The notes under the pieces are model-generated. The model saw only the letters and a list, made by a program, of their open reading frames with translations. It had not been told where the DNA came from and searched no databases. The position numbers were made by a program, and so were the translations under genes. 64,000 nt of DNA from assembly GCA_965178125.1 (NCBI GenBank), contig OZ237770.1, positions 1 through 64,000 on the forward strand. The letters are read 5' to 3'. This stretch comes from Bilabrum cf. latius. Its lineage: Eukaryota. Positions within the stretch are counted from its first letter, which is position 1. Every line of letters begins with the position of its first letter. This document shows, one piece after another, positions 1 to 18,165 of this stretch.

Positions 1-589
1 ACCCTAACCCTAACCCTAACCCTAACCCTAACCCTAACCCTAACCCTAACCCTAACCCTAACCCTAACCCTAACCCTAACCCTAACCCTAACCCTAACCC
101 TAACCCTAACCCTAACCCTAACCCTAACCCTAACCCTAACCCTAACCCTAACCCTAACCCTAACCCTAACCCTAACCCTAACCCTAACCCTAACCCTAAC
201 CCTAACCCTAACCCTAACCCTAACCCTAACCCTAACCCTAACCCTAACCCTAACCCTAACCCTAACCCTAACCCTAACCCTAACCCTAACCCTAACCCTA
301 ACCCTAACCCTAACCCTAACCCTAACCCTAACCCTAACCCTAACCCTAACCCTAACCCTAACCCTAACCCTAACCCTAACCCTAACCCTAACCCTAACCC
401 TAACCCTAACCCTAACCCTAACCCTAACCCTAACCCTAACCCTAACCCTAACCCTAACCCTAACCCTAACCCTAACCCTAACCCTAACCCTAACCCTAAC
501 CCTAACCCTAACCCTAACCCTAACCCTAACCCTAACCCTAACCCTAACCCTAACCCTAACCCTAACCCTAACCCTAACCCTAACCCTAA
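1..589. repeat. Terminal telomeric tract (CCCTAA)n, TTAGGG type
   Basis: Perfect CCCTAA hexamers run from position 1, with the C-rich strand at the 5' end as expected for a left chromosome end. Confidence 0.97.
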
Positions 590-3500
590 ACCCTGTGAAA
601 TTCTTCATACACCCATATCGGCGCCGCGCGGCCAGAACGGAACCTGGGGAATATTTGGCCCATGTTTTGCCCCCAGGCCGTCCCGATGCAGTTTGAACGG
701 TCTTCATATCACCTGTAGTTGCCGAGATCGTAGCACGTCGTTTTTCGGTGTGAAATTCTTCATACACCCATATCGGCGCCGCGCGGCCAGAACGGAACCT
801 GGGGAACATTTGGCCCATGTTGTGCCCCCAGGCCGTCCCGATGCAGTTTGAACGGTCTTCATATCACCTGTAGTTGCCGAGATCGTAGCACGTCGTTTTT
901 CGGTGTGAAATTCTTCATACACCCATATCGGCGCCGCGCGGCCAGAACGGAACCTGGGGAACATTTGGCCCATGTTGTGCCCCCAGGCCGTCCCGATGCA
1001 GTTTGAACGGTCTTCATATCACCTGTAGTTGCCGAGATCGTAGCACGTCGTTTTTCGGTGTGAAATTCTTCATACACCCATATCGGCGCATACACCCATA
1101 TCGGCGCCGCGCGGCCAGAACGGAACCTGGGGAACATTTGGCCCATGTTGTGCCCCCAGGCCGTCCCGATGCAGTTTGAACGGTCTTCATATCACCTGTA
1201 GTTGCCGAGATCGTAGCACGTCGTTTTTCGACAAATATTGAAGATGAAAATATTTTTTCCCCGACCCTGTCCCTGACTTTATATTAGATACCCTAACCCT
1301 AACCCTAACCCTAACCCTAACCCTAACCCTAACCCTAACCCTAACCCTAACCCTAACCCTAACCCTAACCCTAACCCTAACCCTAACCCTAACCCTAACC
1401 CTAACCCTAACCCTAACCCTAACCCTAACCCTAACCCTAACCCTAACCCTAACCCTAACCCTAACCCTAACCCTAACCCTAACCCTAACCCTAACCCTAA
1501 CCCTAACCCTAACCCTAACCCTAACCCTAACCCTAACCCTAACCCTAACCCTAACCCTAACCCTAACCCTAACCCTAACCCTAACCCTAACCCTAACCCT
1601 AACCCTAACCCTAACCCTAACCCTAACCCTAACCCTAACCCTAACCCTAACCCTAACCCTAACCCTAACCCTAACCCTAACCCTAACCCTAACCCTAACC
1701 CTAACCCTAACCCTAACCCTAACCCTAACCCTAACCCTAACCCTAACCCTAACCCTAACCCTAACCCTAACCCTAACCCTAACCCTAACCCTAACCCTAA
1801 CCCTAACCCTAACCCTAACCCTAACCCTAACCCTAACCCTAACCCTAACCCTAACCCTAACCCTAACCCTAACCCTAACCCTAACCCTAACCCTAACCCT
1901 AACCCTAACCCTAACCCTAACCCTAACCCTAACCCTAACCCTAACCCTAACCCTAACCCTAACCCTAACCCTAACCCTAAACCCTGTGAAATTCTTCATA
2001 CACCCATATCGGCGCCGCGCGGCCAGAACGGAACCTGGGGAATATTTGGCCCATGTTTTGCCCCCAGGCCGTCCCGATGCAGTTTGAACGGTCTTCATAT
2101 CACCTGTAGTTGCCGAGATCGTAGCACGTCGTTTTTCGGTGTGAAATTCTTCATACACCCATATCGGCGCCGCGCGGCCAGAACGGAACCTGGGGAACAT
2201 TTGGCCCATGTTGTGCCCCCAGGCCGTCCCGATGCAGTTTGAACGGTCTTCATATCACCTGTAGTTGCCGAGATCGTAGCACGTCGTTTTTCGGTGTGAA
2301 ATTCTTCATACACCCATATCGGCGCCGCGCGGCCAGAACGGAACCTGGGGAACATTTGGCCCATGTTGTGCCCCCAGGCCGTCCCGATGCAGTTTGAACG
2401 GTCTTCATATCACCTGTGGTCTTCATATCACCTGTAGTTGCCGAGATCGTAGCACGTCGTTTTTCGGTGTGAAATTCTTCATACACCCATATCGGCGCCG
2501 CGCGGCCAGAACGGAACCTGGGGAACATTTGGCCCATGTTGTGCCCCCAGGCCGTCCCGATGCAGTTTGAACGGTCTTCATATCACCTGTAGTTGCCGAG
2601 ATCGTAGCACGTCGTTTTTCGACAAATATTGAAGATGAAAATATTTTTTCCCCGACCCTGTCCCTGACTTTATATTAGATACCCTAACCCTAACCCTAAC
2701 CCTAACCCTAACCCTAACCCTAACCCTAACCCTAACCCTAACCCTAACCCTAACCCTAACCCTAACCCTAACCCTAACCCTAACCCTAACCCTAACCCTA
2801 ACCCTAACCCTAACCCTAACCCTAACCCTAACCCTAACCCTAACCCTAACCCTAACCCTAACCCTAACCCTAACCCTAACCCTAACCCTAACCCTAACCC
2901 TAACCCTAACCCTAACCCTAACCCTAACCCTAACCCTAACCCTAACCCTAACCCTAACCCTAACCCTAACCCTAACCCTAACCCTAACCCTAACCCTAAC
3001 CCTAACCCTAACCCTAACCCTAACCCTAACCCTAACCCTAACCCTAACCCTAACCCTAACCCTAACCCTAACCCTAACCCTAACCCTAACCCTAACCCTA
3101 ACCCTAACCCTAACCCTAACCCTAACCCTAACCCTAACCCTAACCCTAACCCTAACCCTAACCCTAACCCTAACCCTAACCCTAACCCTAACCCTAACCC
3201 TAACCCTAACCCTAACCCTAACCCTAACCCTAACCCTAACCCTAACCCTAACCCTAACCCTAACCCTAACCCTAACCCTAACCCTAACCCTAACCCTAAC
3301 CCTAACCCTAACCCTAACCCTAACCCTAACCCTAACCCTAACCCTAACCCTAACCCTAACCCTAACCCTAACCCTAACCCTAACCCTAACCCTAACCCTA
3401 ACCCTAACCCTAACCCTAACCCTAACCCTAACCCTAACCCTAACCCTAACCCTAACCCTAACCCTAACCCTAACCCTAACCCTAACCCTAACCCTAACCC

Positions 3501-5797
3501 TAACCCTAACCCTAACCCTAACCCTAACCCTAACCCTAACCCTAACCCTAACCCTAACCCTAACCCTAACCCTAACCCTAACCCTAACCCTAACCCTAAC
3601 CCTAACCCTAACCCTAACCCTAACCCTAACCCTAACCCTAACCCTAACCCTAACCCTAACCCTAACCCTAACCCTAACCCTAACCCTAACCCTAACCCTA
3701 ACCCTAACCCTAACCCTAACCCTAACCCTAACCCTAACCCTAACCCTAACCCTAACCCTAACCCTAACCCTAACCCTAACCCTAACCCTAACCCTAACCC
3801 TAACCCTAACCCTAACCCTAACCCTAACCCTAACCCTAACCCTAACCCTAACCCTAACCCTAAACCCTGTGAAATTCTTCATACACCCATATCGGCGCCG
3901 CGCGGCCAGAACGGAACCTGGGGAATATTTGGCCCATGTTTTGCCCCCAGGCCGTCCCGATGCAGTTTGAACGGTCTTCATATCACCTGTAGTTGCCGAG
4001 ATCGTAGCACGTCGTTTTTCGGTGTGAAATTCTTCATACACCCATATCGGCGCCGCGCGGCCAGAACGGAACCTGGGGAACATTTGGCCCATGTTGTGCC
4101 CCCAGGCCGTCCCGATGCAGTTTGAACGGTCTTCATATCACCTGTAGTTGCCGAGATCGTAGCACGTCGTTTTTCGGTGTGAAATTCTTCATACACCCAT
4201 ATCGGCGCCGCGCGGCCAGAACGGAACCTGGGGAACATTTGGCCCATGTTGTGCCCCCAGGCCGTCCCGATGCAGTTTGAACGGTCTTCATATCACCTGT
4301 AGTTGCCGAGATCGTAGCACGTCGTTTTTCGGTGTGAAATTCTTCATACACCCATATCGGCGCCGCGCGGCCAGAACGGAACCTGGGGAACATTTGGCCC
4401 ATGTTGTGCCCCCAGGCCGAGGCCGTCCCGATGCAGTTTGAACGGTCTTCATATCACCTGTAGTTGCCGAGATCGTAGCACGTCGTTTTTCGACAAATAT
4501 TGAAGATGAAAATATTTTTTCCCCGACCCTGTCCCTGACTTTATATTAGATACCCTAACCCTAACCCTAACCCTAACCCTAACCCTAACCCTAACCCTAA
4601 CCCTAACCCTAACCCTAACCCTAACCCTAACCCTAACCCTAACCCTAACCCTAACCCTAACCCTAACCCTAACCCTAACCCTAACCCTAACCCTAACCCT
4701 AACCCTAACCCTAACCCTAACCCTAACCCTAACCCTAACCCTAACCCTAACCCTAACCCTAACCCTAACCCTAACCCTAACCCTAACCCTAACCCTAACC
4801 CTAACCCTAACCCTAACCCTAACCCTAACCCTAACCCTAACCCTAACCCTAACCCTAACCCTAACCCTAACCCTAACCCTAACCCTAACCCTAACCCTAA
4901 CCCTAACCCTAACCCTAACCCTAACCCTAACCCTAACCCTAACCCTAACCCTAACCCTAACCCTAACCCTAACCCTAACCCTAACCCTAACCCTAACCCT
5001 AACCCTAACCCTAACCCTAACCCTAACCCTAACCCTAACCCTAACCCTAACCCTAACCCTAACCCTAACCCTAACCCTAACCCTAACCCTAACCCTAACC
5101 CTAACCCTAACCCTAACCCTAACCCTAACCCTAACCCTAACCCTAACCCTAACCCTAACCCTAACCCTAACCCTAACCCTAACCCTAACCCTAACCCTAA
5201 CCCTAACCCTAACCCTAACCCTAACCCTAACCCTAACCCTAACCCTAACCCTAACCCTAAACCCTGTGAAATTCTTCATACACCCATATCGGCGCCGCGC
5301 GGCCAGAACGGAACCTGGGGAATATTTGGCCCATGTTTTGCCCCCAGGCCGTCCCGATGCAGTTTGAACGGTCTTCATATCACCTGTAGTTGCCGAGATC
5401 GTAGCACGTCGTTTTTCGGTGTGAAATTCTTCATACACCCATATCGGCGCCGCGCGGCCAGAACGGAACCTGGGGAACATTTGGCCCATGTTGTGCCCCC
5501 AGGCCGTCCCGATGCAGTTTGAACGGTCTTCATATCACCTGTAGTTGCCGAGATCGTAGCACGTCGTTTTTCGGTGTGAAATTCTTCATACACCCATATC
5601 GGCGCCGCGCGGCCAGAACGGAACCTGGGGAACATTTGGCCCATGTTGTGCCCCCAGGCCGTCCCGATGCAGTTTGAACGGTCTTCATATCACCTGTAGT
5701 TGCCGAGATCGTAGCACGTCGTTTTTCGGTGTGAAATTCTTCATACACCCATATCGGCGCCGCGCGGCCAGAACGGAACCTGGGGAACATTTGGCCC
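590..5797. repeat. Four subfamily-A 155-bp satellite cassettes separated by internal telomere tracts
   Basis: Cassettes lie at 590-1290, 1981-2681, 3864-4552 and 5261-5797 (the last lacks the cap). Internal (CCCTAA)n tracts lie at 1291-1980, 2682-3863 and 4553-5260. All four share the left junction ccctaaaccctgtgaaattc. Confidence 0.95.
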
Positions 5798-6430
5798 AAC
5801 CCTAACCCTAACCCTAACCCTAACCCTAACCCTAACCCTAACCCTAACCCTAACCCTAACCCTAACCCTAACCCTAACCCTAACCCTAACCCTAACCCTA
5901 ACCCTAACCCTAACCCTAACCCTAACCCTAACCCTAACCCTAACCCTAACCCTAACCCTAACCCTAACCCTAACCCTAACCCTAACCCTAACCCTAACCC
6001 TAACCCTAACCCTAACCCTAACCCTAACCCTAACCCTAACCCTAACCCTAACCCTAACCCTAACCCTAACCCTAACCCTAACCCTAACCCTAACCCTAAC
6101 CCTAACCCTAACCCTAACCCTAACCCTAACCCTAACCCTAACCCTAACCCTAACCCTAACCCTAACCCTAACCCTAACCCTAACCCTAACCCTAACCCTA
6201 ACCCTAACCCTAACCCTAACCCTAACCCTAACCCTAACCCTAACCCTAACCCTAACCCTAACCCTAACCCTAACCCTAACCCTAACCCTAACCCTAACCC
6301 TAACCCTAACCCTAACCCTAACCCTAACCCTAACCCTAACCCTAACCCTAACCCTAACCCTAACCCTAACCCTAACCCTAACCCTAACCCTAACCCTAAC
6401 CCTAACCCTAACCCTAACCTAAAACCCTAC
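5798..6430. repeat. Internal telomeric tract with variant repeats at its right end
   Basis: (CCCTAA)n ending in acctaaaaccctac. Confidence 0.95.
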
Positions 6431-7256
6431 CCTTCATCGGCTCGTATCAGCGCCGCGCGACATAAACGGAACCTGGGGAACATTTGGCCCATGTTGTGCC
6501 CCAAGGCCGTCCCAATGCAGTTTGAACGGTCTTCATATGTCCTGTAGTTGCAGAGATCTCAATCCGCGAAAATTCAGCATGATATCCTTCATCGGCTCAT
6601 ATCGGCGCCGCGCGACATAAACGGAGCCTGGGGAACATTTGGCCCATGTTGTGCCCCAAGGCCGTCCCAATGCAGTTTGAACGGTCTTCATATGTCCTGT
6701 AGTTGCCGAGATCTCAATCCGCGAAAATTCAGCATGAAATCCTTCATCGGCTCGTATCAGCGCCGCGCGACATAAACGGAACCTGGGGAACATTTGGCCC
6801 ATGTTGTGCCCCAAGGCCGTCCCAATGCAGTTTGAACGGTCTTCATATGTCCTGTAGTTGCCGAGATCTCAATCCGCGAAAATTCAGCATGATATCCTTC
6901 ATCGGCTCATATCGGCGCCGCGCGACATAAACGGAACCTGGGGAACATTTGGCCCATGTTGTGCCCCAAGGCCGTCCCAATGCAGTTTGAACGGTCTTCA
7001 TATGTCCTGTAGTTGCCGAGATCTCAATCCGCGAAAATTCAGCATGAAATCCTTCATCGGCTCGTATCAGCGCCGCGCGACATAAACGGAACCTGGGGAA
7101 CATTTGGCCCATGTTGTGCCCCAAGGCCGTCCCAATGCAGTTTGAACGGTCTTCATATGTCCTGTAGTTGCCGAGATCTCAATCCGCGAAAATTCGACAA
7201 AAATTGAAGATGAAAATATTTTTTCCCCGACCCTGTCCCTGACTTTATAATAGATA
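6431..7256. repeat. Subfamily-B 155-bp satellite cassette with cap
   Basis: About 5 monomers share the cores ggaacctggggaacatttg and atgcagtttgaacggtcttcatat with subfamily A. It ends in the cap ...ccccgaccctgtccctgactttataatagata. Confidence 0.93.
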
Positions 7257-7887
7257 CCCTAACCCTAACCCTAACCCTAACCCTAACCCTAACCCTAACC
7301 CTAACCCTAACCCTAACCCTAACCCTAACCCTAACCCTAACCCTAACCCTAACCCTAACCCTAACCCTAACCCTAACCCTAACCCTAACCCTAACCCTAA
7401 CCCTAACCCTAACCCTAACCCTAACCCTAACCCTAACCCTAACCCTAACCCTAACCCTAACCCTAACCCTAACCCTAACCCTAACCCTAACCCTAACCCT
7501 AACCCTAACCCTAACCCTAACCCTAACCCTAACCCTAACCCTAACCCTAACCCTAACCCTAACCCTAACCCTAACCCTAACCCTAACCCTAACCCTAACC
7601 CTAACCCTAACCCTAACCCTAACCCTAACCCTAACCCTAACCCTAACCCTAACCCTAACCCTAACCCTAACCCTAACCCTAACCCTAACCCTAACCCTAA
7701 CCCTAACCCTAACCCTAACCCTAACCCTAACCCTAACCCTAACCCTAACCCTAACCCTAACCCTAACCCTAACCCTAACCCTAACCCTAACCCTAACCCT
7801 AACCCTAACCCTAACCCTAACTCTAACCCTAACCCTAACCCTAACCCTAACCCTAACCCTAACCCTAACCCCTACCCTACCCCCTAA
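7257..7887. repeat. Internal telomeric tract
   Basis: (CCCTAA)n with variants (ctctaa, cccctac) towards the right end. Confidence 0.95.
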
Positions 7888-10337
7888 CCGGCCTATCTAA
7901 CCCGCATCGTATAGCACGCACATCCTGTCTGTGGGCCGAGAAATCGGCGTTCTCCGTATAGCTAGGGTTACGAAAGTGGCATATTTGGGTGTTTAATGGT
8001 CCATATCTCAGCCGATACTGGTCGTTGATGGCTGCGGCTTCGTCATGGCCGGGTCACGACTGCTTTCGCGTCGGTTACTTTTCGAACTCGGAGTCGAATT
8101 TCACACCCCTTCCTGCCCTCACTGTGCCCTCGGACTGTATCATGGAGGTGCTCCAGACCCACAGGCATGTGCTGCGACGCAGTTTGACCACCAGCATGCA
8201 TCACGGCGAATGGTAGAGTCAGAGCCATGAAATCCATGTGTTCCAGGATATGTGATCTCGGATTGCCGAAGTAGCCCGGCGTGGCATTTTTATAGAATGC
8301 ATATTCAAACGCACTCATGCCGCATCTGGTTGCTGAGCTATCGGGACTTGCGCAAATGTTTGGGCTAGCCCGAATCTTTGATCCATGTTTTCTCAGCCCG
8401 GAAATATGTCCAATGCCTTACACCTTCCACATGATGTCTACGCACCTCTGTTCCCTGGAATTACTCGGAGTTTCATAATTTTCAACCAAGTCTCACTCTT
8501 ACCGGTCTGTGACATGCACCCTATTCCTAGCCTTGCCCCTTTGTGGGGGAGTTGCAAATTCGATTTGCTGATTCATGAGTTTGCATTATTGCACTGTATC
8601 ATTTACGGTACTTGGTTTTCTGACATGATTAAAAAATCCACCCAATTTTCGGGGCCAACCTCCTCTCGCCGGTATATGACATACACCCTATTCCTAGCCT
8701 TGCCCCTTTGTGGGGGAGTTGCAAATTTGATTTGCTGATTCATGAGTTTGCATTATTGCACTGTATCATTTACGGTACTTGGTTTTCTGACATGATTAAA
8801 AAATCCACCCAATTTTCGGGGCCAACCTCCTCTCGCCGGTATATGACATACACCCTATTCCTAGCCTTGCCCCTTTGTGGGGGAGTTGCAAATTCGATTT
8901 GCTGATTCATGAGTTTGCATTATTGCACTGTATCATTTACGGTACTTGGTTTTCTGACATTAATGAAGATCGCCAGTCACCCAGTCACTGTGGGCGTGGC
9001 GCCGACCAGATGAGCACTTACTTGTATTGCTCGATTGCTCGAGAGCTGTGTGCCAGCCATTCTCCAAACTTCGCACACATGACACATGATGATGACTCAA
9101 AGTGCGAATGAACGGCTGAAATCAAGAAATCTCATTTACAGCTAATGAACGCCCCTAAGGAAAACCTCTTACCTAACCCGAACCCATGTACGTATGCAAA
9201 CCCAACCATGTAGGTGTGCAAACCCCATACTTGCAATGCTTGATGTAATAGAATCACGGGGAACATTTGCCCCCAGTTGTGGTCCCAGGCCGTCCCGATG
9301 CAGTTTGAACGGTCTTCATATCTCATCTGGTTGCCGAGATCGCCGCGCGCATTTTTTCTGCATGACAATCTTCGTCCCACCATACTGTCGCCGCGCGGTA
9401 TAAACGGAACCTGGGGAACATTTGCCCCCTGTTGTGGTCCCAGGCCGTCCCGATGCAGTTTGAACGGTCTTCATATCTCCTGTGGTTGCCGAGATCGCCG
9501 CGCGCATTTTTTCTGCCTGAAAATCTTCGTCCCCCCATACTGTCGCCGCGCGGTCAAAACGGAATCTGGGGAACATTTGCCTAACATTGTACCCCCAGGC
9601 CGTCCCGATGCAGTATGAACGGTCTTCATATCTCATCTGGTTGCCGAGATCGTCGCGCGCATTTTTTCTGCATGACAATCTTCGTCCAGCCATATTGTCG
9701 CCGCGCGGTATAAACGGAACCTGGGGAACATTTGCCCCCAGTTGTGGTCCCAGGCCGTCCCGATGCAGTTTGAACGGTCTTCATATCTCATCTGGTTGCC
9801 GAGATCGCCGCGCGCATTTTTTCTGCATGACAATCTTCGTCCAGCCATATTGTCGCCGCGCGGTATAAACGGAACCTGGGGAACATTTGCCCCCAGTTGT
9901 GGTCCCAGGCCGTCCCGATGCAGTTTGAACGGTCTTCATATCTCATCTGGTTGCCGAGATCGTCGCGCGCATTTTTTCTGCATGACAATCTTCGTCCAGC
10001 CATATTGTCGCCGCGCGGTCAAAACGGAACCTGGGGAACATTTGCCCCCAGTTGTACCCCCAGGCCGTCCCGATGCAGTTTGAACGGTCTTCATATCTCA
10101 TCTGGTTGCCGAGATCGTTGCGCGCATTTTTTCTGCATGACAATCTTCGTCCAGCCATATTGTCGCCGCGCGGTCAAAACGGAACCTGGGGAACATTTGC
10201 CCCCAGGCCGTCCCGATGCAGTTTGAACGGTCCTCATATCTCATCTGGTTGCCGAGATCGTCGCGCGCATTTTTTCGACAAAAAGTGAAGATGAAAAAAA
10301 ATTTTCCCCGACCCTGTCCCTGACTTTATATTAGATA
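7888..10337. repeat. Subtelomeric composite unit, copy 1: unique segment, 167-bp repeats, subfamily-C 155-bp array and cap
   Basis: Near-identical to 10970-13431 (offset 3082). The 167-bp repeat spans about 8511-8960 and the 155-bp array about 9257-10276. Confidence 0.92.
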
Positions 10338-10546
10338 CCCTAACCCTAACCCTAACCCTAACCCTAACCCTAACCCTAACCCTAACCCTAACCCTAACCC
10401 TAACCCTAACCCTAACCCTAACCCTAACCCTAACCCTAACCCTAACCCTAACCTAACCCTAACCCTAACCCTAACCCTAACCCTAACCCTAACCCTAACC
10501 CTAACCCTAACCCTAACCCCTACCCTAACCTAACCCTAACCCTAAC
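10338..10546. repeat. Short internal telomeric tract with variant repeats
   Basis: (CCCTAA)n with cctaa and cccctac variants. Confidence 0.93.
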
Positions 10547-13431
10547 TCCGGCCTATCTAACCCGCATCGTATAGCACGCACATCCTGTCTGTGGGCCGAG
10601 AAATCGGCGTTCTCCGTATAGCTAGGGGTATAGCTAGGGTTACGAAAGTGGCATATTTGGGTGTTTAATGGTCCATATCTCAGCCGATACTGGTCGTTGA
10701 TGGCTGCGGCTTCGTCATAGCCGGGTCACGACTGCTTTCGCGTCGGTTACTTTTCGAACTCGGAGTCGAATTTCACACCCCTTCCTGCCCTCACTGTGCC
10801 CTCGGACTGTATCATGGAGGTGCTCCAGACCCACAGGCATGTGCTGCGACGCAGTTTGGCCACCAGCATGCATCACGGCGAATGGTAGAGCCGAACCAGT
10901 TTACCTGCTCCTATCTGATTCCGGATTGCAAGCGAACATGTGCCCGCGTCGTCTCGACTAGTTCCGACTCCGGCCTATCTAACCCGCATCGTATAGCACG
11001 CACATCCTGTCTGTGGGCCGAGAAATCGGCGTTCTCCGTATAGCTAGGGTTACGAAAGTGGCATATTTGGGTGTTTAATGGTCCATATCTCAGCCGATAC
11101 TGGTCGTTGATGGCTGCGGCTTCGTCATGGCCGGGTCACGACTGCTTTCGCGTCGGTTACTTTTCGAACTCGGAGTCGAATTTCACACCCCTTCCTGCCC
11201 TCACTGTGCCCTCGGACTGTATCATGGAGGTGCTCCAGACCCACAGGCATGTGCTGCGACGCAGTTTGACCACCAGCATGCATCACGGCGAATGGTAGAG
11301 TCAGAGCCATGAAATCCATGTGTTCCAGGATATGTGATCTCGGATTGCCGAAGTAGCCCGGCGTGGCATTTTTATAGAATGCATATTCAAACGCACTCAT
11401 GCCGCATCTGGTTGCTGAGCTATCGGGACTTGCGCAAATGTTTGGGCTAGCCCGAATCTTTGATCCATGTTTTCTCAGCCCGGAAATATGTCCAATGCCT
11501 TACACCTTCCACATGATGTCTACGCACCTCTGTTCCCTGGAATTACTCGGAGTTTCATAATTTTCAACCAAGTCTCACTCTTACCGGTCTGTGACATGCA
11601 CCCTATTCCTAGCCTTGCCCCTTTGTGGGGGAGTTGCAAATTCGATTTGCTGATTCATGAGTTTGCATTATTGCACTGTATCATTTACGGTACTTGGTTT
11701 TCTGACATGATTAAAAAATCCACCCAATTTTCGGGGCCAACCTCCTCTCGCCGGTATATGACATACACCCTATTCCTAGCCTTGCCCCTTTGTGGGGGAG
11801 TTGCAAATTTGATTTGCTGATTCATGAGTTTGCATTATTGCACTGTATCATTTACGGTACTTGGTTTTCTGACATGATTAAAAAATCCACCCAATTTTCG
11901 GGGCCAACCTCCTCTCGCCGGTATATGACATACACCCTATTCCTAGCCTTGCCCCTTTGTGGGGGAGTTGCAAATTCGATTTGCTGATTCATGAGTTTGC
12001 ATTATTGCACTGTATCATTTACGGTACTTGGTTTTCTGACATTAATGAAGATCGCCAGTCACCCAGTCACTGTGGGCGTGGCGCCGACCAGATGAGCACT
12101 TACTTGTATTGCTCGATTGCTCGAGAGCTGTGTGCCAGCCATTCTCCAAACTTCGCACACATGACACATGATGATGACTCAAAGTGCGAATGAACGGCTG
12201 AAATCAAGAAATCTCATTTACAGCTAATGAACGCCCCTAAGGAAAACCTCTTACCTAACCCGAACCCATGTACGTATGCAAACCCAACCATGTAGGTGTG
12301 CAAACCCCATACTTGCAATGCTTGATGTAATAGAATCACGGGGAACATTTGCCCCCAGTTGTGGTCCCAGGCCGTCCCGATGCAGTTTGAACGGTCTTCA
12401 TATCTCATCTGGTTGCCGAGATCGCCGCGCGCATTTTTTCTGCATGACAATCTTCGTCCCACCATACTGTCGCCGCGCGGTATAAACGGAACCTGGGGAA
12501 CATTTGCCCCCTGTTGTGGTCCCAGGCCGTCCCGATGCAGTTTGAACGGTCTTCATATCTCCTGTGGTTGCCGAGATCGCCGCGCGCATTTTTTCTGCCT
12601 GAAAATCTTCGTCCCCCCATACTGTCGCCGCGCGGTCAAAACGGAATCTGGGGAACATTTGCCTAACATTGTACCCCCAGGCCGTCCCGATGCAGTATGA
12701 ACGGTCTTCATATCTCATCTGGTTGCCGAGATCGTCGCGCGCATTTTTTCTGCATGACAATCTTCGTCCAGCCATATTGTCGCCGCGCGGTATAAACGGA
12801 ACCTGGGGAACATTTGCCCCCAGTTGTGGTCCCAGGCCGTCCCGATGCAGTTTGAACGGTCTTCATATCTCATCTGGTTGCCGAGATCGCCGCGCGCATT
12901 TTTTCTGCATGACAATCTTCGTCCAGCCATATTGTCGCCGCGCGGTATAAACGGAACCTGGGGAACATTTGCCCCCAGTTGTGGTCCCAGGCCGTCCCGA
13001 TGCAGTTTGAACGGTCTTCATATCTCATCTGGTTGCCGAGATCGTCGCGCGCATTTTTTCTGCATGACAATCTTCGTCCAGCCATATTGTCGCCGCGCGG
13101 TCAAAACGGAACCTGGGGAACATTTGCCTAACATTGTACCCCCAGGCCGTCCCGATGCAGTTTGAACGGTCTTCATATCTCATCTGGTTGCCGAGATCGT
13201 TGCGCGCATTTTTTCTGCATGACAATCTTCGTCCAGCCATATTGTCGCCGCGCGGTCAAAACGGAACCTGGGGAACATTTGCCCCACATTGTACCCCCAG
13301 GCCGTCCCGATGCAGTTTGAACGGTCCTCATATCTCATCTGGTTGCCGAGATCGTCGCGCGCATTTTTTCGACAAAAAGTGAAGATGAAAAAAAATTTTC
13401 CCCGACCCTGTCCCTGACTTTATATTAGATA
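10547..13431. repeat. Subtelomeric composite unit, copy 2, with a partial tandem duplication of its left ~340 bp
   Basis: 10547-10890 repeats 10968-11299. The remainder matches 7888-10337 and ends in the same cap. Confidence 0.92.
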
Positions 13432-14100
13432 CCCTAACCCTAACCCTAACCCTAACCCTAACCCTAACCCTAACCCTAACCCTAACCCTAACCCTAACCC
13501 TAACCCTAACCCTAACCCTAACCCTAACCCGAACCCTAACCCTAACCCTAACCCTAACCCTAACCCTAACCCTAACCCTAACCCTAACCCTAACCCTAAC
13601 CCTAACCCTAACCCTAACCCTAACCCTAACCCTAACCCTAACCCTAACCCTAACCCTAACCCTAACCCTAACCCTAACCCTAACCCTAACCCTAACCCTA
13701 ACCCTAACCCTAACCCTAACCCTAACCCTAACCCTAACCCTAACCCTAACCCTAACCCTAACCCTAACCCTAACCCTAACCCTAACCCTAACCCTAACCC
13801 TAACCCTAACCCTAACCCTAACCCTAACCCTAACCCTAACCCTAACCCTAACCCTAACCCTAACCCTAACCCTAACCCTAACCCTAACCCTAACCCTAAC
13901 CCTAACCCTAACCCTAACCCTAACCCTAACCCTAACCCTAACCCTAACCCTAACCCTAACCCTAACCCTAACCCTAACCCTAACCCTAACCCTAACCCTA
14001 ACCCTAACCCTAACCCTAACCCTAACCCTAACCCTAACCCTAACCCTAACCCTAACCCTAACCCTAACCCTAACCCTAACCCTAACCCTAACCCTAACCC
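13432..14100. repeat. Innermost internal telomeric tract
   Basis: (CCCTAA)n with one cccgaa variant near 13531. Confidence 0.96.
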
Positions 14101-14296
14101 GCACTGTGGTGGTCGGCAGGTCCGAGGGGTGCGCCGTGGATGAGGTCGCAGGCGCACTGTGGTGGTTGGCAGGTCCGAGGGGTGGGCCGTGGATGAGGAC
14201 GCAGGCGCACTGTGGTGTTTGGCAGGTCGGAGGTGTGCGCCGTGGATGAGGTCGCAGGCGCACTGTGGTGTTTGGCAGGTCCGAGGTGTGCGCCGT
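14101..14296. repeat. 53-bp GC-rich telomere-adjacent minisatellite (~3.7 copies)
   Basis: The unit gcactgtggtggtcggcaggtccgaggggtgcgccgtggatgaggtcgcaggc starts at 14101, 14154, 14207 and 14260. Confidence 0.9.
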
Positions 14297-14459
14297 GCGA
14301 TCCTTTTTTTTTTTTTGGATGAGCGGCCTGTGACTAGAAATCATAGATCCCAGATAAAAGCAAAAGAGGTGTACTCCACAACTGACCAAAATGGTTAGCA
14401 GCATAAATGACAGACTCCGTCATCCAGGCAGCGCGAATCGGTCTCTTGATCGACTGCAC

Positions 14460-16256
14460 TCAATGCGATCTTGCCGGGTAAGCTCTAGTCGTGTACCGCA
14501 CAGTACCAAGGTTGTCATAGTACTTAACGACAAAGCCAGCATCGTTGAAGTATACGCCTGCGAATCCAGAATCTGCAGTCACTGCAAGCTCCTCGATGAC
14601 TGCATCGCTGGAGTACGCCAGCTTTGCCCTGCGATTCTCGTCCACTGTCAGGGGGCAGGTCGACTCGGCGGCGTGCACGTACTTAAGAGCCCCGGCCGGG
14701 ATGTCCTGCTTGTGCGAGGCAGCATAGCAGCACTCATGGAAGGACCCGGCCACAACATAAGCCACGTTGTTATTTTCGATGTGTGCCTGGATGTGGTCAT
14801 GGCCACACAGGTAGTGCGCCTACGAAATCACAAGAGTGGAGTGGCCGGAGTTGGCAAGGGGCGCATAGGTGATCAACTTATGGAGCTGGTGTACAGGAAG
14901 TATCCCCGCTGTATGGCAGGCAGGCGTACAGTAGGATCAGCTCACGCCGTACTTCTCGAGCAGGGGAGCCAGCTTGTCCACAAGGTCCTGCGTGGGTCCG
15001 TGCTGGCCAGGGCTCCACACCGGGTAGTGCCCCCCCACAAACACGAAGTCTGCAGAGCTCTTGGCGAGCTACTCATCGATCCACGCGTACCAGTCTGTGT
15101 TCTTCACCTCGGCGGGGACATCCTGCGAGCGCAAAGCAAGCAGCAAACAGCTAGCAGGGGAGCGAGGCCTAGGGAGCGGGGGGGCGGCCTGGACCAAATA
15201 CCGCGCTGGCAGAGGCAAGGCAGCTAACCGGGTGGCTAGCTCTGTGCTCACGATGGTGCGGGTCTCGTTGTCAGTGATCCCTGTCATGATCACGGTGTCC
15301 ACCATGACCACATCCACCGCGTACTTCTTGCCGGACTCATCTGATTCAAGCGTGTCCGAGAACGTGTAGAAGCTGCGAAGAAACTTCCAGGCGCTCAGAA
15401 GCAAGACCGACTCATCAACATGCAACAGACCTTAGCAGCAAAGCGCACTGGTACGAATAGTACGACTTACTAATCGGGATAGTTCCAGCGCTTGCTCAGG
15501 CTGCTGTACGCGATCTGGGCCGAGACATTGCCGCGGTGGTCATGGTTTCCAGCATTTACCCAGAACGGCACATCCTCGAGTTCAGCCGCATCGAATGGTC
15601 GCTCAAAAGTGTCCTGAAACCGAGACGAATGGACATCACCTTGGATACCGTGCGAGTAGAAGCTGCGCGAATCTTGGAGGATGTACGCAATTTAAAGCGA
15701 GTTCTAGAAGTCACTGCTATGGCAACCATTTTTGTTTAATATATTTTATCTAACTTGTCGCCGTTCAGCAGAATGAATGCCGGGGTACTGCGGAAGTGAG
15801 AAAACTTGGCAAGCGCCTTGCAGCAGCTGGCATGTCCCAATGCGCGGCGAACAAGACAGTCATCGCAGGATCAACTAACTCGTTCTTTGCCAGGGATCCA
15901 AGTCGACCAGCGGCAAGCTCTTCGCCAGCGGTGTAGTAGCTGCGCTGGCGTGATTGAAGCATGAGTAAGATGCGAGTGGTACGAAGTGCATTCTAACCCT
16001 TTCGTTAGCAATGGTAGATCGTCGCAGTAGGATGTAGGATATCCAGCGCATCTCACGGGGATGTCTCCTATCCACCCCAGTCACCCTGCGTACCAAAGGT
16101 ACAGATCAGCAGCAACCACCCTAGGTAAGCGTCGACAAGCTGATGACATGAACGTAGTCACGTAGTCGGGTGAACTTCACTCACAACTGAGAAGAACATG
16201 GATGAAGCCAGGGCGGACCCAGCGCTAGCAGCGCACATCAAAACGAAAGACCGCAT
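14460..16256 (-). CDS. Secreted purple/tartrate-resistant acid phosphatase (ACP5-like), multi-exon
   Basis: A signal-peptide-like start [11 protein letters not shown] is followed by the motifs [35 protein letters not shown] and CGHDH across GT-AG introns. In-frame TAG at 16068 and 15069; ends TGA. Confidence 0.88.
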
Positions 16257-16656
16257 CGGTATAACAAAACTGTGTAAATGTGTGTGCTGCGCTCTGCTGA
16301 CCGGATCTCGCGAGACTGGTCGAGCGGAACCGACGCCGCGGCGCCCGCGCCGAAGAATCCTTGTTGCTCAGCTCCATCTTCCCTGCATCAATCACACAAA
16401 CCGCATCAATAGTGCTAATCTGCAAGACACAGCGTAGAGTAGGTCGTCTGCTTTGCAGCTGAGTGAGATAGTTGAACGGCCGTGAATCGTCAAGTGATCG
16501 CCGATATTGTCTCTTGTATCCGTTGCAGAGAAGCCCATGCAGCAATTCTGCGCAGCGCATGCTCAAGACAGCACACCTTAATGATTCGATGCATGTATTC
16601 ACTTTCTGAAGTTGAATGAGCGCAGTAGTCGCATAACCCTCATAGCTAGCGCACAT

Positions 16657-18165
16657 ATGAGCGGGGCAAGGATATTACCAGCCGCTGGCCTTGATCCGAC
16701 TCACGTCACGCGAAGAAGCATAAACCTACTGGCAACCCACAGGAAATCTTTAAAGCATGACCAGGCGTAGAAGGCAGGCAAGTCTACATTGACGGCCATA
16801 GGCGAGAGGAGCCTCAGGAGCGAGCGGCCACGGCCAGTGGTGCTGGCAGGCAGGGACGTGCGCCACATGGAAATGGATATTACCGCCGGGACACCCACGG
16901 CGCGACCAGTCGTAGCAAGCAGGGTCCATAAGGTGAGTGCAGCTGACCGCCGGAAGAGAGCAGATCGATTGCGTGCCATCGACGAGGGCAGGCTGCAGCG
17001 GAACGTCGCCAGCGGTCGGTCAGACCAGGAGAGGCTGAGGCGAGAGGCGGACCGCATCAAGCGGGAGTTGATGGCCTCGGATGTGGGCGTCAGTATTTCA
17101 CATGCCATGTCTGCAGCAGCGGCAGTGTCGGTGCTGGACGAGCAGCGTGCCCGCAAGCAGCACCGCCATGCAGTGCAGCGAGAAGAGGACCTGGCCTGGG
17201 ACAGAGCTCGGCTGGACCAGGCCAGGGCGGAGGAAGCTACGGCCAGAAGCAAGGCGGCCCATCAGCGGGCGAGGAGCGTGCAGGTCCGGCAAGAGTTAGG
17301 CGAGTAGCTGCGCCGCCGGGCCATCGAGCGCCTGCTCGCCCTCGAGCGCAAGGACCAGGAGGGGAGGGCGGCGCTCAAGCAGCAGGCTGCCAGGGAGGAG
17401 GAGGACAGGGAGCGGGCGAGACAGCAGCGAGCACTGAAGCTGCAACTGCAGGCAGATCTACGGGCCTCCAACGCTGCCTCGGAGGCGATGAAGCAGCAGC
17501 GGGAGAGGCGGGAGGAGGAGCATGAGCGGGTGCTGGAGGAGGAGCGGGTGCAGCTGGAGATGGAGGCCCGCCGCAGGGAGCAGGAGGCCCGGGAGGAGAA
17601 AGAGGAAGAGGAGAGAATATTCCGCAAGCTGGCGGCACGGCAGCAGCGAGCAGCTGATACCGTCGCCGCCGAGGCCGAGGCCATCGCAAGGCGGGAGCAA
17701 GAGAAAGTGGAGATGGCAAGGCGGAGGCGGGAGCGGGATGCGCGGGAGGAAGCGGCTCGTCGGAAGCATGAGCTGCTCCAGGGTCTGGACGCGCAGCGCA
17801 AGAGGAGGGAGGCAGTGCTGGCCCGCGAGCGGGAAGCAGACCTTCAGGCGGCCATGGTGGTGCAGCAGGAGCAGGAGGAGGCGCGGTATCGAGCCTAGCA
17901 GGAGAAGGCAGCCCGGGAGCAGGACAAGGCGAAGTACCGAGCAGAGGCGCGGGCGGAGCTGGAGGCGCGGATGCGGGCTCGGGCAGGGGCGAGGCATGCC
18001 AAGCTGCTCGAGGCAAGGGAGGGGCAGATGACGCGACAGGCTGAATCACTGGCCAGGCAGGAGATCCAGAGGGAGGCCTTGGCGGAGGCAGGTCAGAGGG
18101 GGCTGCTTGGAGCCACGAGGGCGGTGGTGGACCGGGCTGTGGGCCGGGCAACTGGGTAGTTCTGA
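16657..18165 (+). CDS. E/R/A/Q-rich coiled-coil protein, possibly trichohyalin-plectin-homology ciliary type (502 aa with TAG=Gln)
   Basis: ORF-track fragments at 16789, 17488 and 17971 share one frame, broken only by TAG (16768, 17305, 17896, 18157). ATG at 16657, TGA at 18163. The family call rests on composition only. Confidence 0.72.

What the first reader, a model, noticed from the sequence alone, without database searches (positions are those of the whole stretch)
1..14100. Layered telomere: near full-length telomere tracts alternating with capped satellite cassettes
Seen: eight tracts (about 590, 690, 1182, 708, 630, 630, 210 and 670 bp) alternate with same-orientation cassettes, ordered by subfamily C, C, B, A, A, A, A from inside to outside. 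Most internal tracts are as long as the terminal one. Inference: each internal tract was once the chromosome end, a cassette was appended to it and then re-capped by telomerase, leaving a chronological record. Known analogues are yeast Y' elements, Magnaporthe MoTeR and terminal Penelope-like (Athena) elements, but these cassettes are non-coding satellites. This may be an undescribed telomere-extension system.
Basis: partly seen in the sequence, partly recalled or inferred. Interest (0 to 1): 0.8.

Follow-up and report, generated by a model that had tools for sequence, protein, structure and literature searches.

The report
Stacked telomere and satellite layers
One chromosome end of an unidentified protist carries eight telomere tracts separated by seven copies of a small non-coding repeat cassette, most likely built by repeatedly copying telomere-flanked cassettes onto the end, as already known in other forms from yeast, Leishmania, nematodes and the rice blast fungus.

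Summary
Eight CCCTAA tracts, all in one orientation, alternate with seven same-orientation non-coding cassettes ordered A,A,A,A(truncated),B,C,C from the tip inward.

New points:
- Every complete cassette ends inward in a conserved 60-nt "cap" joined to the next tract in one fixed phase, in 6 of 6 cases and across subfamilies that are only 78-82% alike.
- Sister copies are near-identical.
- All four A copies share one outer telomere junction.
- Internal tracts are almost perfect, and 5 of 7 hold 103-118 repeats against 98 at the tip.
- No coding capacity, reverse transcriptase or Rfam match was found.

Cassette C is present in contigs of two independent studies, and further satellite subfamilies exist elsewhere in those genomes. 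The layer order itself could not be checked with long reads.

Best reading (0.55): recombination-dependent copying (BIR-like) of telomere-flanked cassettes onto chromosome ends, a natural Y'/TALT/LCTAS/MoTeR2-like arrangement.

Rivals: a dedicated, defined-end appending mechanism (0.2), rolling-circle copying (0.1), assembly artefact (0.1).

Verdict: a new variant of a known kind, of moderate interest.

The parts
1..589 (+). Terminal telomere tract, 98 CCCTAA repeats, at the contig start (chromosome tip on the left)
590..1289 (+). Cassette A1: 155-bp satellite x4 plus cap (1230-1289); private 18-bp tandem duplication at 1071-1107
1290..1980 (+). Internal telomere tract 2, 115 perfect repeats
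1981..2680 (+). Cassette A2: satellite x4 plus cap (2621-2680); private 18-bp tandem duplication at 2400-2435
2681..3863 (+). Internal telomere tract 3, 197 perfect repeats (the long outlier)
3864..4551 (+). Cassette A3: satellite x4 plus cap (4492-4551); private 6-bp duplication near 4410-4421
4552..5260 (+). Internal telomere tract 4, 118 perfect repeats
5261..5797 (+). Cassette A4: 3.4 satellite units with the normal outer junction; cut on the inner side within a unit, no cap, joined to tract 5 with at most 1 nt of shared sequence
5798..6419 (+). Internal telomere tract 5, 103 perfect repeats
6420..7255 (+). Cassette B: irregular telomere-like repeats (6420-6433), 155-bp satellite x4.9 of a second subfamily (two alternating unit variants), cap 7196-7255
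7256..7889 (+). Internal telomere tract 6, about 105 repeats, one variant repeat and a degenerate inner end
7872..10336 (+). Cassette C1: unique DNA, 167-bp repeat x2.7 (8502-8960), unique DNA, 155-bp satellite x6.7 of a third subfamily (9258-10276), cap 10277-10336
   Evidence: covered by contigs of runs from two studies
10337..10546 (+). Internal telomere tract 7, about 35 repeats with variants at the inner end
10547..13430 (+). Cassette C2: partial extra copy of the outer C segment plus 78-80 nt not seen in C1 (10547-10969), then a full C copy (10970-13430) differing from C1 at 3 places only; cap 13371-13430
13431..14100 (+). Innermost telomere tract 8, 111 repeats with one variant, joined with no degenerate zone to a 53-bp minisatellite
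14100..14297 (+). 53-bp minisatellite x3.7, the start of chromosome-unique DNA; the inner boundary of the whole structure

Best explanation
This is a real chromosome end that has been lengthened outward several times by copying, not by telomerase alone.

The cassettes belong to a family of non-coding telomere-associated elements. Each has a 155-bp satellite array closed on its inner side by a conserved 60-nt cap, and the cap always abuts a telomere tract. Because every cassette is flanked by telomere repeats in direct orientation, a telomeric 3' end can pair with the tract lying inside a cassette. That end may come from this chromosome end, its sister or another end. It can then prime recombination-dependent (break-induced) replication that copies the cap, the satellite and the outer telomere.

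Each such event buries the former terminal tract and adds one or more layers. Unequal exchange between layers, slippage and deletion then reshape the stack: the truncated A4, the unit gain or loss in C2/C1, and the small private duplications.

Telomerase is needed only for the rare healing events that created each subfamily's outer junction, and for keeping the tip.

Shown: layout, polarity, junction identity, near-identity of sister copies, absence of coding capacity. Inferred: the copying mechanism, its donors, and that all layers sit on one molecule.
For: 1. Direct-repeat geometry. Eight tracts lie in one orientation and none in the other across 64 kb. Seven cassettes lie in one orientation and none in 14101-64000.
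2. Junctions look inherited, not re-made. 4 of 4 A copies share the same irregular outer junction and first-unit variants. 6 of 6 caps meet the tract in the same phase across A, B and C. The outer junctions of C1 and C2 share a degenerate-repeat motif.
3. Amplification is recent. A1-A3 have 0 substitutions. C1 and C2 differ at 3 places in about 2450 nt, with none in the first 2159 nt.
4. Internal tracts are young. Five have no variant repeat and three have 1-3, although the cap junction predates the A/B/C split (units 78-82% alike).
5. No element-encoded machinery was found. Rfam gave 0 matches. The longest cassette ORF is 154 aa, and 0 of 9 ORFs reach a Pfam cut-off. No RT, endonuclease or helicase family appeared in 87 flanking ORFs.
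6. The sequence family is real outside this assembly and larger than this end. C1 is covered in 29, 30 and 27 of 30 bins by contigs of X1, X3 and X5, which come from two studies. 3 of 3 tested loose-end continuations are absent from the window.
7. The mechanism has direct precedents: Y'/SUL1 terminal amplicons and human 18p by (mm)BIR from telomere ends into internal telomere tracts; BIR from ITSs in wild nematodes; break-induced expansion of non-coding MoTeR2 arrays; and TALT.
Against: 1. Five of seven internal tracts hold 103-118 repeats, close to the terminal 98. Random-register invasion or exchange gives such clustering in about 1e-3 or 5e-5 of simulations (post hoc). Copying by descent cannot explain similar lengths next to different subfamilies. 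This favours addition at the very tip of full-length telomeres.
2. 0 of 3 private duplications in A1-A3 are shared with the neighbouring outer copy. The A array is therefore not a simple serial in-cis copy. Each copy looks taken from a clean master, or else mutated afterwards.
3. The cap (92-97% alike) is better conserved than the satellite (78-82%), hinting at a function of its own.
4. No donor end, no whole genome and no long read could be examined. The tool masked the telomere flanks, so even the junctions were not read-checked.
5. Dependence on recombination proteins is untested.
Confidence: 0.55

Rival explanations
1. A dedicated end-appending mechanism. A template with defined ends anneals by a short telomere-complementary tail to the natural 3' terminus of a full-length telomere. 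The template is most simply a C-strand-sense cassette RNA ending in the cap plus a few CCCUAA. It is copied by a reverse transcriptase encoded elsewhere, and telomerase then recaps the product. The cassette would be a non-autonomous telomere-specific retroelement, working like MoTeR2, terminal Penelope-like elements or Drosophila HeT-A.
For: - The inner (cap) end is constant, with fixed phase in 6 of 6 cassettes across diverged subfamilies.
- The cap is more conserved than the satellite.
- The outer end varies, as with 5' truncation: C is long, while A and B retain only satellite plus cap.
- All copies point the same way.
- Internal tract lengths cluster at the terminal length.
- Each A copy carries its own private error, as in master-copy amplification.
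- The tract always ends ...TTAGGGT at the cap. This is the 3' overhang terminus reported for two Leishmania species (passage in PMC8621916); it is an analogy only.
- The A and B arrays begin 1 and 10 nt from the unit position at which the cap is joined, as a fixed template start would give.
Against: - No RT, endonuclease or any coding capacity in the cassettes or in 50 kb of flank; the genome was not available to search.
- No poly(A) tail, and no structured RNA signal (fold z-scores -1.07 to +0.92; Rfam 0 matches).
- A4 is truncated at the supposed 3' (priming) end.
- The identical irregular outer junction in 4 of 4 A copies needs either deterministic telomerase initiation or copying.
Confidence: 0.2
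2. Rolling-circle or pseudo-rolling-circle copying. Either an excised circle of one cassette plus one tract is copied by a telomere 3' end, or the tip invades an inner tract of the same end and copies round repeatedly. Several layers would arise in one event.
For: - Units of cassette plus tract (about 1.4 kb) are flanked by direct telomere repeats, which can loop out.
- Two of the three A-to-A periods are 1391 and 1397 bp, derived from the coordinates.
- Sister copies are near-identical.
- Precedents: pseudo-rolling-circle mmBIR; the roll-and-spread model in Kluyveromyces lactis (abstract start of PMC3486848 in the listing).
Against: - The model predicts equal internal tracts and inherited errors. 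The A array has 115, 197 and 118 repeats, and 0 of 3 private duplications are shared.
- It cannot place three subfamilies in one stack without further events.
- No data on circles.
Confidence: 0.1
3. Assembly artefact. Reads from several chromosome ends, each holding one cassette and one internal tract, were chained through telomere-repeat overlaps, or the number of layers was inflated.
For: - Pure repeat tracts of 600-1200 bp allow false overlaps in any register.
- Layer order could not be tested: only k-mer contigs were available, and the tool masked the telomere flanks.
- One assembly base (8047 G) is A in every contig that covers it in X1, X3 and X5.
Against: - Any read holding a cap followed by CCCTAA repeats already proves an internal same-orientation tract, so at least one layer per end must be real.
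- Seven successive false joins with no branch to unique DNA are unlikely.
- Copies are individually distinguishable: private duplications, the truncated A4, unequal tracts and the extra segment in C2.
- C1 and C2 are separated by only 210 bp of tract, which modest reads span.
- Cassette C is present in a second study.
Confidence: 0.1
4. An old, static subtelomere in which the internal tracts are fossil telomeres kept by descent.
For: The cap-tract junction is shared by diverged subfamilies. Decayed telomere remnants at repeat joints were noted for another protist in this scan (e1-671186; not checked here).
Against: The tracts are 99-100% perfect over 600-1200 bp, while the adjoining cap and satellite have diverged by 3-22%. 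Sister cassettes are near-identical.
Confidence: 0.03

Closest known systems
Yeast Y' and SUL1 terminal amplicons and the human 18p terminal repeats (Brewer et al. 2026, PMC13515017; abstract and sections 9 and 12 read)
   Same: Direct tandem copies of the terminal segment appended to a native telomere. Copies are separated by internal telomere tracts and are near-identical. For human 18p the tracts are about 650 bp of CCCTAA, close to the 620-710 bp seen here.
   Different: Units there are 6.7 kb (recalled) to 45 kb and carry genes; here they are 0.5-2.9 kb and non-coding. Within one amplicon their internal tracts are nearly identical, which is not so in the A array here (115/197/118). The yeast cases arose under telomere stress or in mutants, whereas the state of this organism is unknown.
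Template for ALT (TALT) in C. elegans and mTALT in mouse ES cells (PMC4595603, PMC7889907; abstracts only)
   Same: A block of non-telomeric DNA flanked by telomere(-like) repeats is copied in cis and in trans onto chromosome ends and becomes part of the telomere.
   Different: TALT spread was seen in telomerase-deleted survivors and starts from an internal genomic source copy. No internal copy exists in this window, and the genome could not be searched. The irregular first repeats at the A and B outer junctions suggest that telomerase was active here (inference).
Leishmania conserved telomere-associated sequences (LCTAS) (passages of PMC12676763 and PMC8621916; the original 1998 paper is not held)
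   Same: In a wild-type protist, blocks of TTAGGG repeats are interspersed with short conserved non-coding satellite elements at chromosome ends. Terminal amplification has been proposed for their maintenance.
   Different: LCTAS are about 100 bp with two conserved blocks; sequence relatedness was not tested. The tracts here are near full telomere length and nearly perfect. The cassette is a 155-bp satellite array plus cap. This organism has interrupted genes on both strands, which is unlike a trypanosomatid (inference).
MoTeR1/MoTeR2 arrays in Magnaporthe oryzae telomeres (PMC7367193, passages)
   Same: Head-to-tail arrays embedded in telomeres and separated by TTAGGG tracts. MoTeR2 has no RT. 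There are truncated copies with de novo telomere addition, and arrays expand and contract by break-induced events at the internal tracts.
   Different: MoTeR internal tracts are 0.5 to somewhat over 20 repeats, against 35-197 here. MoTeR1 supplies an RT with a REL-endonuclease domain, and no RT was found here. MoTeRs carry telomere-like variant repeats at one terminus; here the telomere-like hexamers sit in the cap at the inner end. No sequence similarity was tested.
Subtelomeres of wild panagrolaimid nematodes (PMC10760449, passages)
   Same: Natural isolates with internal telomere tracts (54 bp and 1.7 kb) alternating with blocks shared between ends, interpreted as BIR from ITSs followed by telomerase.
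   Different: The blocks there are 1.5-74 kb of ordinary sequence, with no conserved cap and no regular stack of seven layers.
Terminal Penelope-like elements (Athena) and Drosophila HeT-A/TART (recalled; no paper read)
   Same: Same polarity logic: a constant end towards the centromere, a variable outer end, and addition to chromosome tips.
   Different: They encode, or depend on, element reverse transcriptases. Nothing of that kind was found here.

Membership tests
Terminal tandem amplicon made by telomere-primed (mm)BIR (Y'/SUL1/human 18p type) | Direct tandem copies of the terminal segment separated by same-orientation internal telomere tracts | tested here: met
   Eight tracts and seven cassettes in one orientation
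Terminal tandem amplicon made by telomere-primed (mm)BIR (Y'/SUL1/human 18p type) | Copies within an amplicon nearly identical | tested here: met
   A1-A3 have 0 substitutions; C1 and C2 differ at 3 places
Terminal tandem amplicon made by telomere-primed (mm)BIR (Y'/SUL1/human 18p type) | Internal tracts of one amplicon identical or nearly so in size (pseudo-rolling-circle form) | tested here: not met
   A array: 115, 197 and 118 repeats; private duplications not inherited, 0 of 3. The in-trans or stepwise form is not excluded.
Terminal tandem amplicon made by telomere-primed (mm)BIR (Y'/SUL1/human 18p type) | Dependence on BIR factors (Pol32 and others) | not testable with these tools
   Needs genetics in the organism
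TALT (template for ALT) | Non-telomeric block flanked by telomere(-like) repeats and present at chromosome ends | tested here: met
TALT (template for ALT) | Internal genomic source copy | tested here: inconclusive
   None in 14101-64000; no genome held
TALT (template for ALT) | Spread to all ends on loss of telomerase | not testable with these tools
   No genome and no telomerase status
Leishmania LCTAS | Short conserved non-coding element interspersed with telomere-repeat blocks at chromosome ends | tested here: met
   The architecture is met; description taken from passages
Leishmania LCTAS | Sequence homology to the CSB1/CSB2 blocks | not tested
   No LCTAS sequence was available from a tool; the original paper is not held
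MoTeR-type telomere-targeted retrotransposon | Head-to-tail arrays within telomeres separated by TTAGGG tracts | tested here: met
   compared
MoTeR-type telomere-targeted retrotransposon | Reverse transcriptase (autonomous member), or termini shared with an RT-bearing partner | tested here: not met
   No RT family in 9 cassette ORFs or 87 flank ORFs. A partner elsewhere in the genome cannot be excluded.
Terminal Penelope-like elements (Athena) | PLE reverse transcriptase lacking the GIY-YIG endonuclease; 3' end carrying telomere repeats (features recalled) | tested here: not met
   No RT found. The telomere-adjacent constant end is present.
Any Rfam RNA family | Covariance-model match | tested here: not met
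   0 matches at E<=1 in 1-16000

The most novel reading that the evidence does not exclude
In a telomerase-positive wild protist, a defined-end non-coding cassette is added, genome-wide and routinely, exactly onto the natural 3' terminus (...TTAGGGT) of full-length telomeres. The cap serves as the docking end, and the product is then recapped. Chromosome ends would thus be maintained as stacks of full-length telomeres and cassettes by a dedicated mechanism, RNA-templated or otherwise, and not by accidental recombination.
Probability: 0.2. Interest if true: 0.85.

Novelty: new variant of a known kind. Interest (0 to 1): 0.55.

Why it matters
If the stack is real on single molecules, it is a natural, apparently wild-type example of composite telomeres. 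Full-length, perfect telomere tracts are buried repeatedly under small non-coding cassettes that share a conserved docking-like end.

It would give a tractable system for three questions:
- How telomere ends start copying from internal telomere tracts outside mutant or cancer settings.
- Whether such cassettes serve as a back-up for telomerase.
- Why buried tracts stay at terminal length.

The fixed cap junction and the tract-length clustering are the two features that could separate accidental recombination from a dedicated extension mechanism.

Tried and rejected
- Whole genome: none is held for this window. Other chromosome ends, TERT and RT genes could therefore not be searched.
- Earlier notes of this scan: nothing for this genome, for look-alikes or for the cassette sequence. 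A word search gave only other genomes.
- Metagenome contigs: the 24-nt satellite core gave 0 matches. An 18-nt cap motif gave 64 rows (63 loci). None extends the cap: flank identity is at most 13/32 and 9/24. The 3 loci holding telomere 12-mers are unrelated degenerate telomere-like tracts. No relatives were found.
- Rfam: 0 matches.
- Folding of the A, B and C units and the cap on both strands: z-scores from -1.07 to +0.92, so no structure signal.
- Pfam on cassette ORFs: nothing at threshold.
- Pfam on the 11 ORFs nearest the innermost tract: nothing.
- Sequencing runs: no RNA holder is listed. X6, guessed to be RNA, laid one 151-nt contig on 2 of 30 bins of C1. This says nothing about expression.
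- Read depth: the word depths differ widely between runs. The cap bin against the C-unique bin is about 142x in X1 but about 3x in X3 and X5. The tool states that depth is not copy number, so I make no copy-number claim.
- Telomere junctions: not testable, because the tool cut contigs at the telomere flanks.
- Organism: the best named relative of the YchF/OLA1 fragment is Cafeteria roenbergensis at 46% identity, and the best unnamed hit is 80%. The lineage is left unassigned.
- Literature: searches found analogues but nothing on this cassette. The organism is unidentified, so I cannot say that the structure is not in print.
- Complex prediction, structure tools and the phage/plasmid/E. coli collections were not used, as they are irrelevant to non-coding DNA of a eukaryote.
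Full report
**What is there**

The window starts at a chromosome tip. CCCTAA repeats run from base 1. A scan for perfect 12-mers of the repeat in all phases finds eight C-strand tracts and no G-strand tract in the 64 kb:
- 1-589
- 1290-1980
- 2681-3863
- 4552-5260
- 5798-6419
- 7256-7871 (degenerate to 7889)
- 10337-10546
- 13431-14100

In repeats these are 98, 115, 197, 118, 103, about 105, about 35 and 111. Five tracts hold no variant repeat and the other three hold one to three. Tandem Repeats Finder reports the same arrays and a 155-bp satellite between them.

**Anatomy of the cassettes**

- A1 (590-1289), A2 (1981-2680) and A3 (3864-4551) each hold four 155-bp units followed by a 60-nt non-satellite "cap".
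- A4 (5261-5797) has the same outer junction and 3.4 units. It then stops inside a unit and runs straight into tract 5 with at most one shared nucleotide. It has no cap.
- B (6420-7255) holds 4.9 units of a second subfamily plus a cap.
- C1 (7872-10336) is a composite of unique DNA, a 167-bp repeat x2.7, unique DNA, 6.7 units of a third subfamily and a cap. C2 (10547-13430) has the same make-up.
- C2 also has an extra partial copy of the outer segment, plus about 80 nt not present in C1 (10547-10969).

The units of A, B and C are 78-82% alike. A core is 88-92% alike and a boundary part 58-67% alike. The caps are 92-97% alike.

In 6 of 6 complete cassettes the cap meets the next tract at the same nucleotide and in the same repeat phase (...TAGAT|ACCCTAA). 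The inner half of the cap contains three telomere-like hexamers. An 18-nt motif from it recurs by chance in unrelated degenerate telomere tracts of metagenomes.

The outer junctions differ between subfamilies:
- 4 of 4 A copies share one junction with an irregular first repeat.
- B has a different junction, with other irregular repeats, 10 nt further into the unit.
- C1 and C2 have degenerate repeats that share a motif.

**Age and relationships**

A1-A3 have no substitutions. They differ only by private tandem duplications of 18, 18 and 6 nt at different places, and none is shared with a neighbour. C1 and the full part of C2 differ at three places, all in the satellite: a small patch, and a 12-nt indel. 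There is no difference in the first 2159 nt.

The stack was therefore amplified very recently. The cap-tract junction itself is older than the split of the subfamilies. Near-perfect tracts beside diverged caps mean that the tracts are renewed. They are not fossils.

**Surroundings**

Tract 8 abuts, with no degenerate zone, a 53-bp minisatellite x3.7 and then unique DNA. No cassette sequence occurs in 14101-64000.

The first Pfam-supported gene fragments lie at 17.3 kb (TPH) and 20.0 kb (BART). Further in are a villin headpiece protein, ankyrin, a kinase, a multi-domain voltage-gated cation channel, APC3/TPR and YchF/OLA1. Eleven ORFs between 14.4 and 16.4 kb matched nothing.

None of the 87 flank ORFs or 9 cassette ORFs matched a reverse transcriptase, endonuclease or helicase. 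The longest cassette ORF is 154 aa. Rfam gave no match, and the units show no fold signal.

The organism is an unidentified eukaryote. The YchF fragment is 46% identical to Cafeteria roenbergensis as best named hit and 80% identical to an unnamed metagenome protein. No genome is held.

**Outside evidence**

Twelve public runs hold part of 7890-17889. Five hold half of its words or more, and these five come from two studies. All are kept as short k-mer contigs.

Laid on C1 with 24-nt flanks, contigs of X1 and X3 (one study) cover 29 and 30 of 30 bins. Contigs of X5 (another study, another organism label) cover 27 of 30 bins. The cassette is therefore not an assembly invention.

The tool cut contigs at the telomere flanks, so neither the junctions nor the layer order were tested. 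Loose ends show satellite units running on into other variable regions. Three of three such continuations tested are absent from the whole window at up to 3 mismatches. Further subfamilies therefore exist elsewhere in those genomes.

Word depths disagree between runs, and the tool says they are not copy numbers, so I draw no copy number from them. No relatives were found in metagenome contigs or in earlier notes of this scan.

**How it most likely works**

Every cassette is flanked by direct telomere repeats. That is the substrate on which telomeric 3' ends are known to start recombination-dependent replication:
- Terminal Y' and SUL1 amplicons in yeast, and four 45-kb repeats separated by about 650-bp CCCTAA tracts on human 18p.
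- ITS-primed BIR in wild nematodes.
- Break-induced expansion of non-coding MoTeR2 arrays.
- TALT and mTALT.

Copying that starts inside a telomere tract carries the cap junction, the cassette and the outer junction along with it. This explains the identical A junctions and the fixed cap phase without a new telomerase event per layer. Later deletion explains A4. Unit gain or loss explains the C1/C2 difference. I put this at 0.55.

**What does not fit neatly**

1. Five of seven buried tracts hold 103-118 repeats, beside 98 at the tip. In simple random-register models this occurs in about 1e-3 or 5e-5 of trials (the window was chosen after seeing the data). It is what one expects if cassettes are added at the very tip of full-length telomeres.
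2. None of the three private duplications is inherited by the next outer copy, so the A array is not a serial in-cis copy.
3. The cap is better conserved than the satellite.
4. The A and B arrays begin 1 and 10 nt from the unit position where the cap is joined. Under uniform break points the chance is roughly 1e-3, again post hoc.

These points keep alive a dedicated, defined-end appending mechanism, most simply RNA-templated (0.2). The constant tract end ...TTAGGGT at the cap equals the overhang terminus reported for two Leishmania species. That is an analogy only.

The other rivals:
- Rolling-circle forms (0.1) predict equal tracts and inherited errors, which are not seen.
- A chained mis-assembly (0.1) cannot be excluded without long reads. 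It is unlikely given seven distinguishable layers and the 210-bp tract between C1 and C2.

**Comparison and verdict**

The architecture matches known kinds in working principle. It fails the tested defining features of the retroelement families, since no RT was found. It also fails the pseudo-rolling-circle form, since the tracts are unequal. Sequence membership in LCTAS was not testable.

The distinctive features are the near full-length, nearly perfect buried tracts, the small non-coding satellite cassette, and the conserved cap with a fixed junction across diverged subfamilies.

I rate it a new variant of a known kind, with interest 0.55. I found no description of this cassette. With the organism unidentified, that is not evidence that none exists.

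**Papers seen**

- PMC13515017: abstract and sections 9 and 12.
- PMC12676763, PMC8621916, PMC7367193, PMC10760449, PMC8311970: passages.
- PMC4595603, PMC7889907, PMC6226469, PMC13234504: abstracts only.
- PMC3486848: listing only.
- Athena and HeT-A: recalled, not read.

Noticed in passing
window 1071-1107, 2400-2435, 4410-4421, 10200 (against 13282-13293): All four indels that distinguish sister cassettes are multiples of six nucleotides: 18, 18 and 6 nt duplications, and a 12-nt indel. There are no substitutions in A1-A3. This is an odd mutation spectrum, with a chance of about 1e-3 if indel lengths were uniform modulo 6. It is unexplained.
   Followed up: partly
window 590-600, 6420-6440 and the cap junctions: The A array is 4.0 units and the B array 4.94 units. 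Their telomere-healed outer ends lie 1 and 10 nt from the unit position at which the cap is joined on the inner side. This may point to a preferred break or start site at the satellite unit boundary.
   Followed up: partly
window 10547-10969 and 7888-8218: The outer ~345 nt of cassette C, plus ~78-80 nt seen only in C2, form a ~423-bp period present 1.8 times in C2. Contigs of X1 give this segment a higher word depth than the next segment, and they carry A where the assembly has G at 8047. This suggests more copies elsewhere.
   Followed up: partly
window 14100-14297: A 53-bp minisatellite x3.7 is joined directly to perfect telomere repeats and followed by a T-run. It looks like a break healed inside the minisatellite, with no subtelomeric buffer before unique DNA.
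   Followed up: no
window 19164-19447: A (CAGGTG)n array of 47 copies at 90% match lies inside a 537-aa open frame with no Pfam family.
   Followed up: no
window 42309-47990 (+): Three consecutive open frames each hold an Ion_trans domain (E 1.8e-49, 2.6e-57, 1.7e-32). This is probably one multi-domain voltage-gated cation channel gene interrupted by introns.
   Followed up: no
window 6431-7195: The B satellite units alternate between two variants, giving a 310-bp higher-order period.
   Followed up: no
run X5, window 9496-10267: One contig of the second study joins 9496 to 10267, skipping 770 nt with 7 other letters between. That genome holds a C-like array with about five fewer units, or a variant copy.
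   Followed up: no
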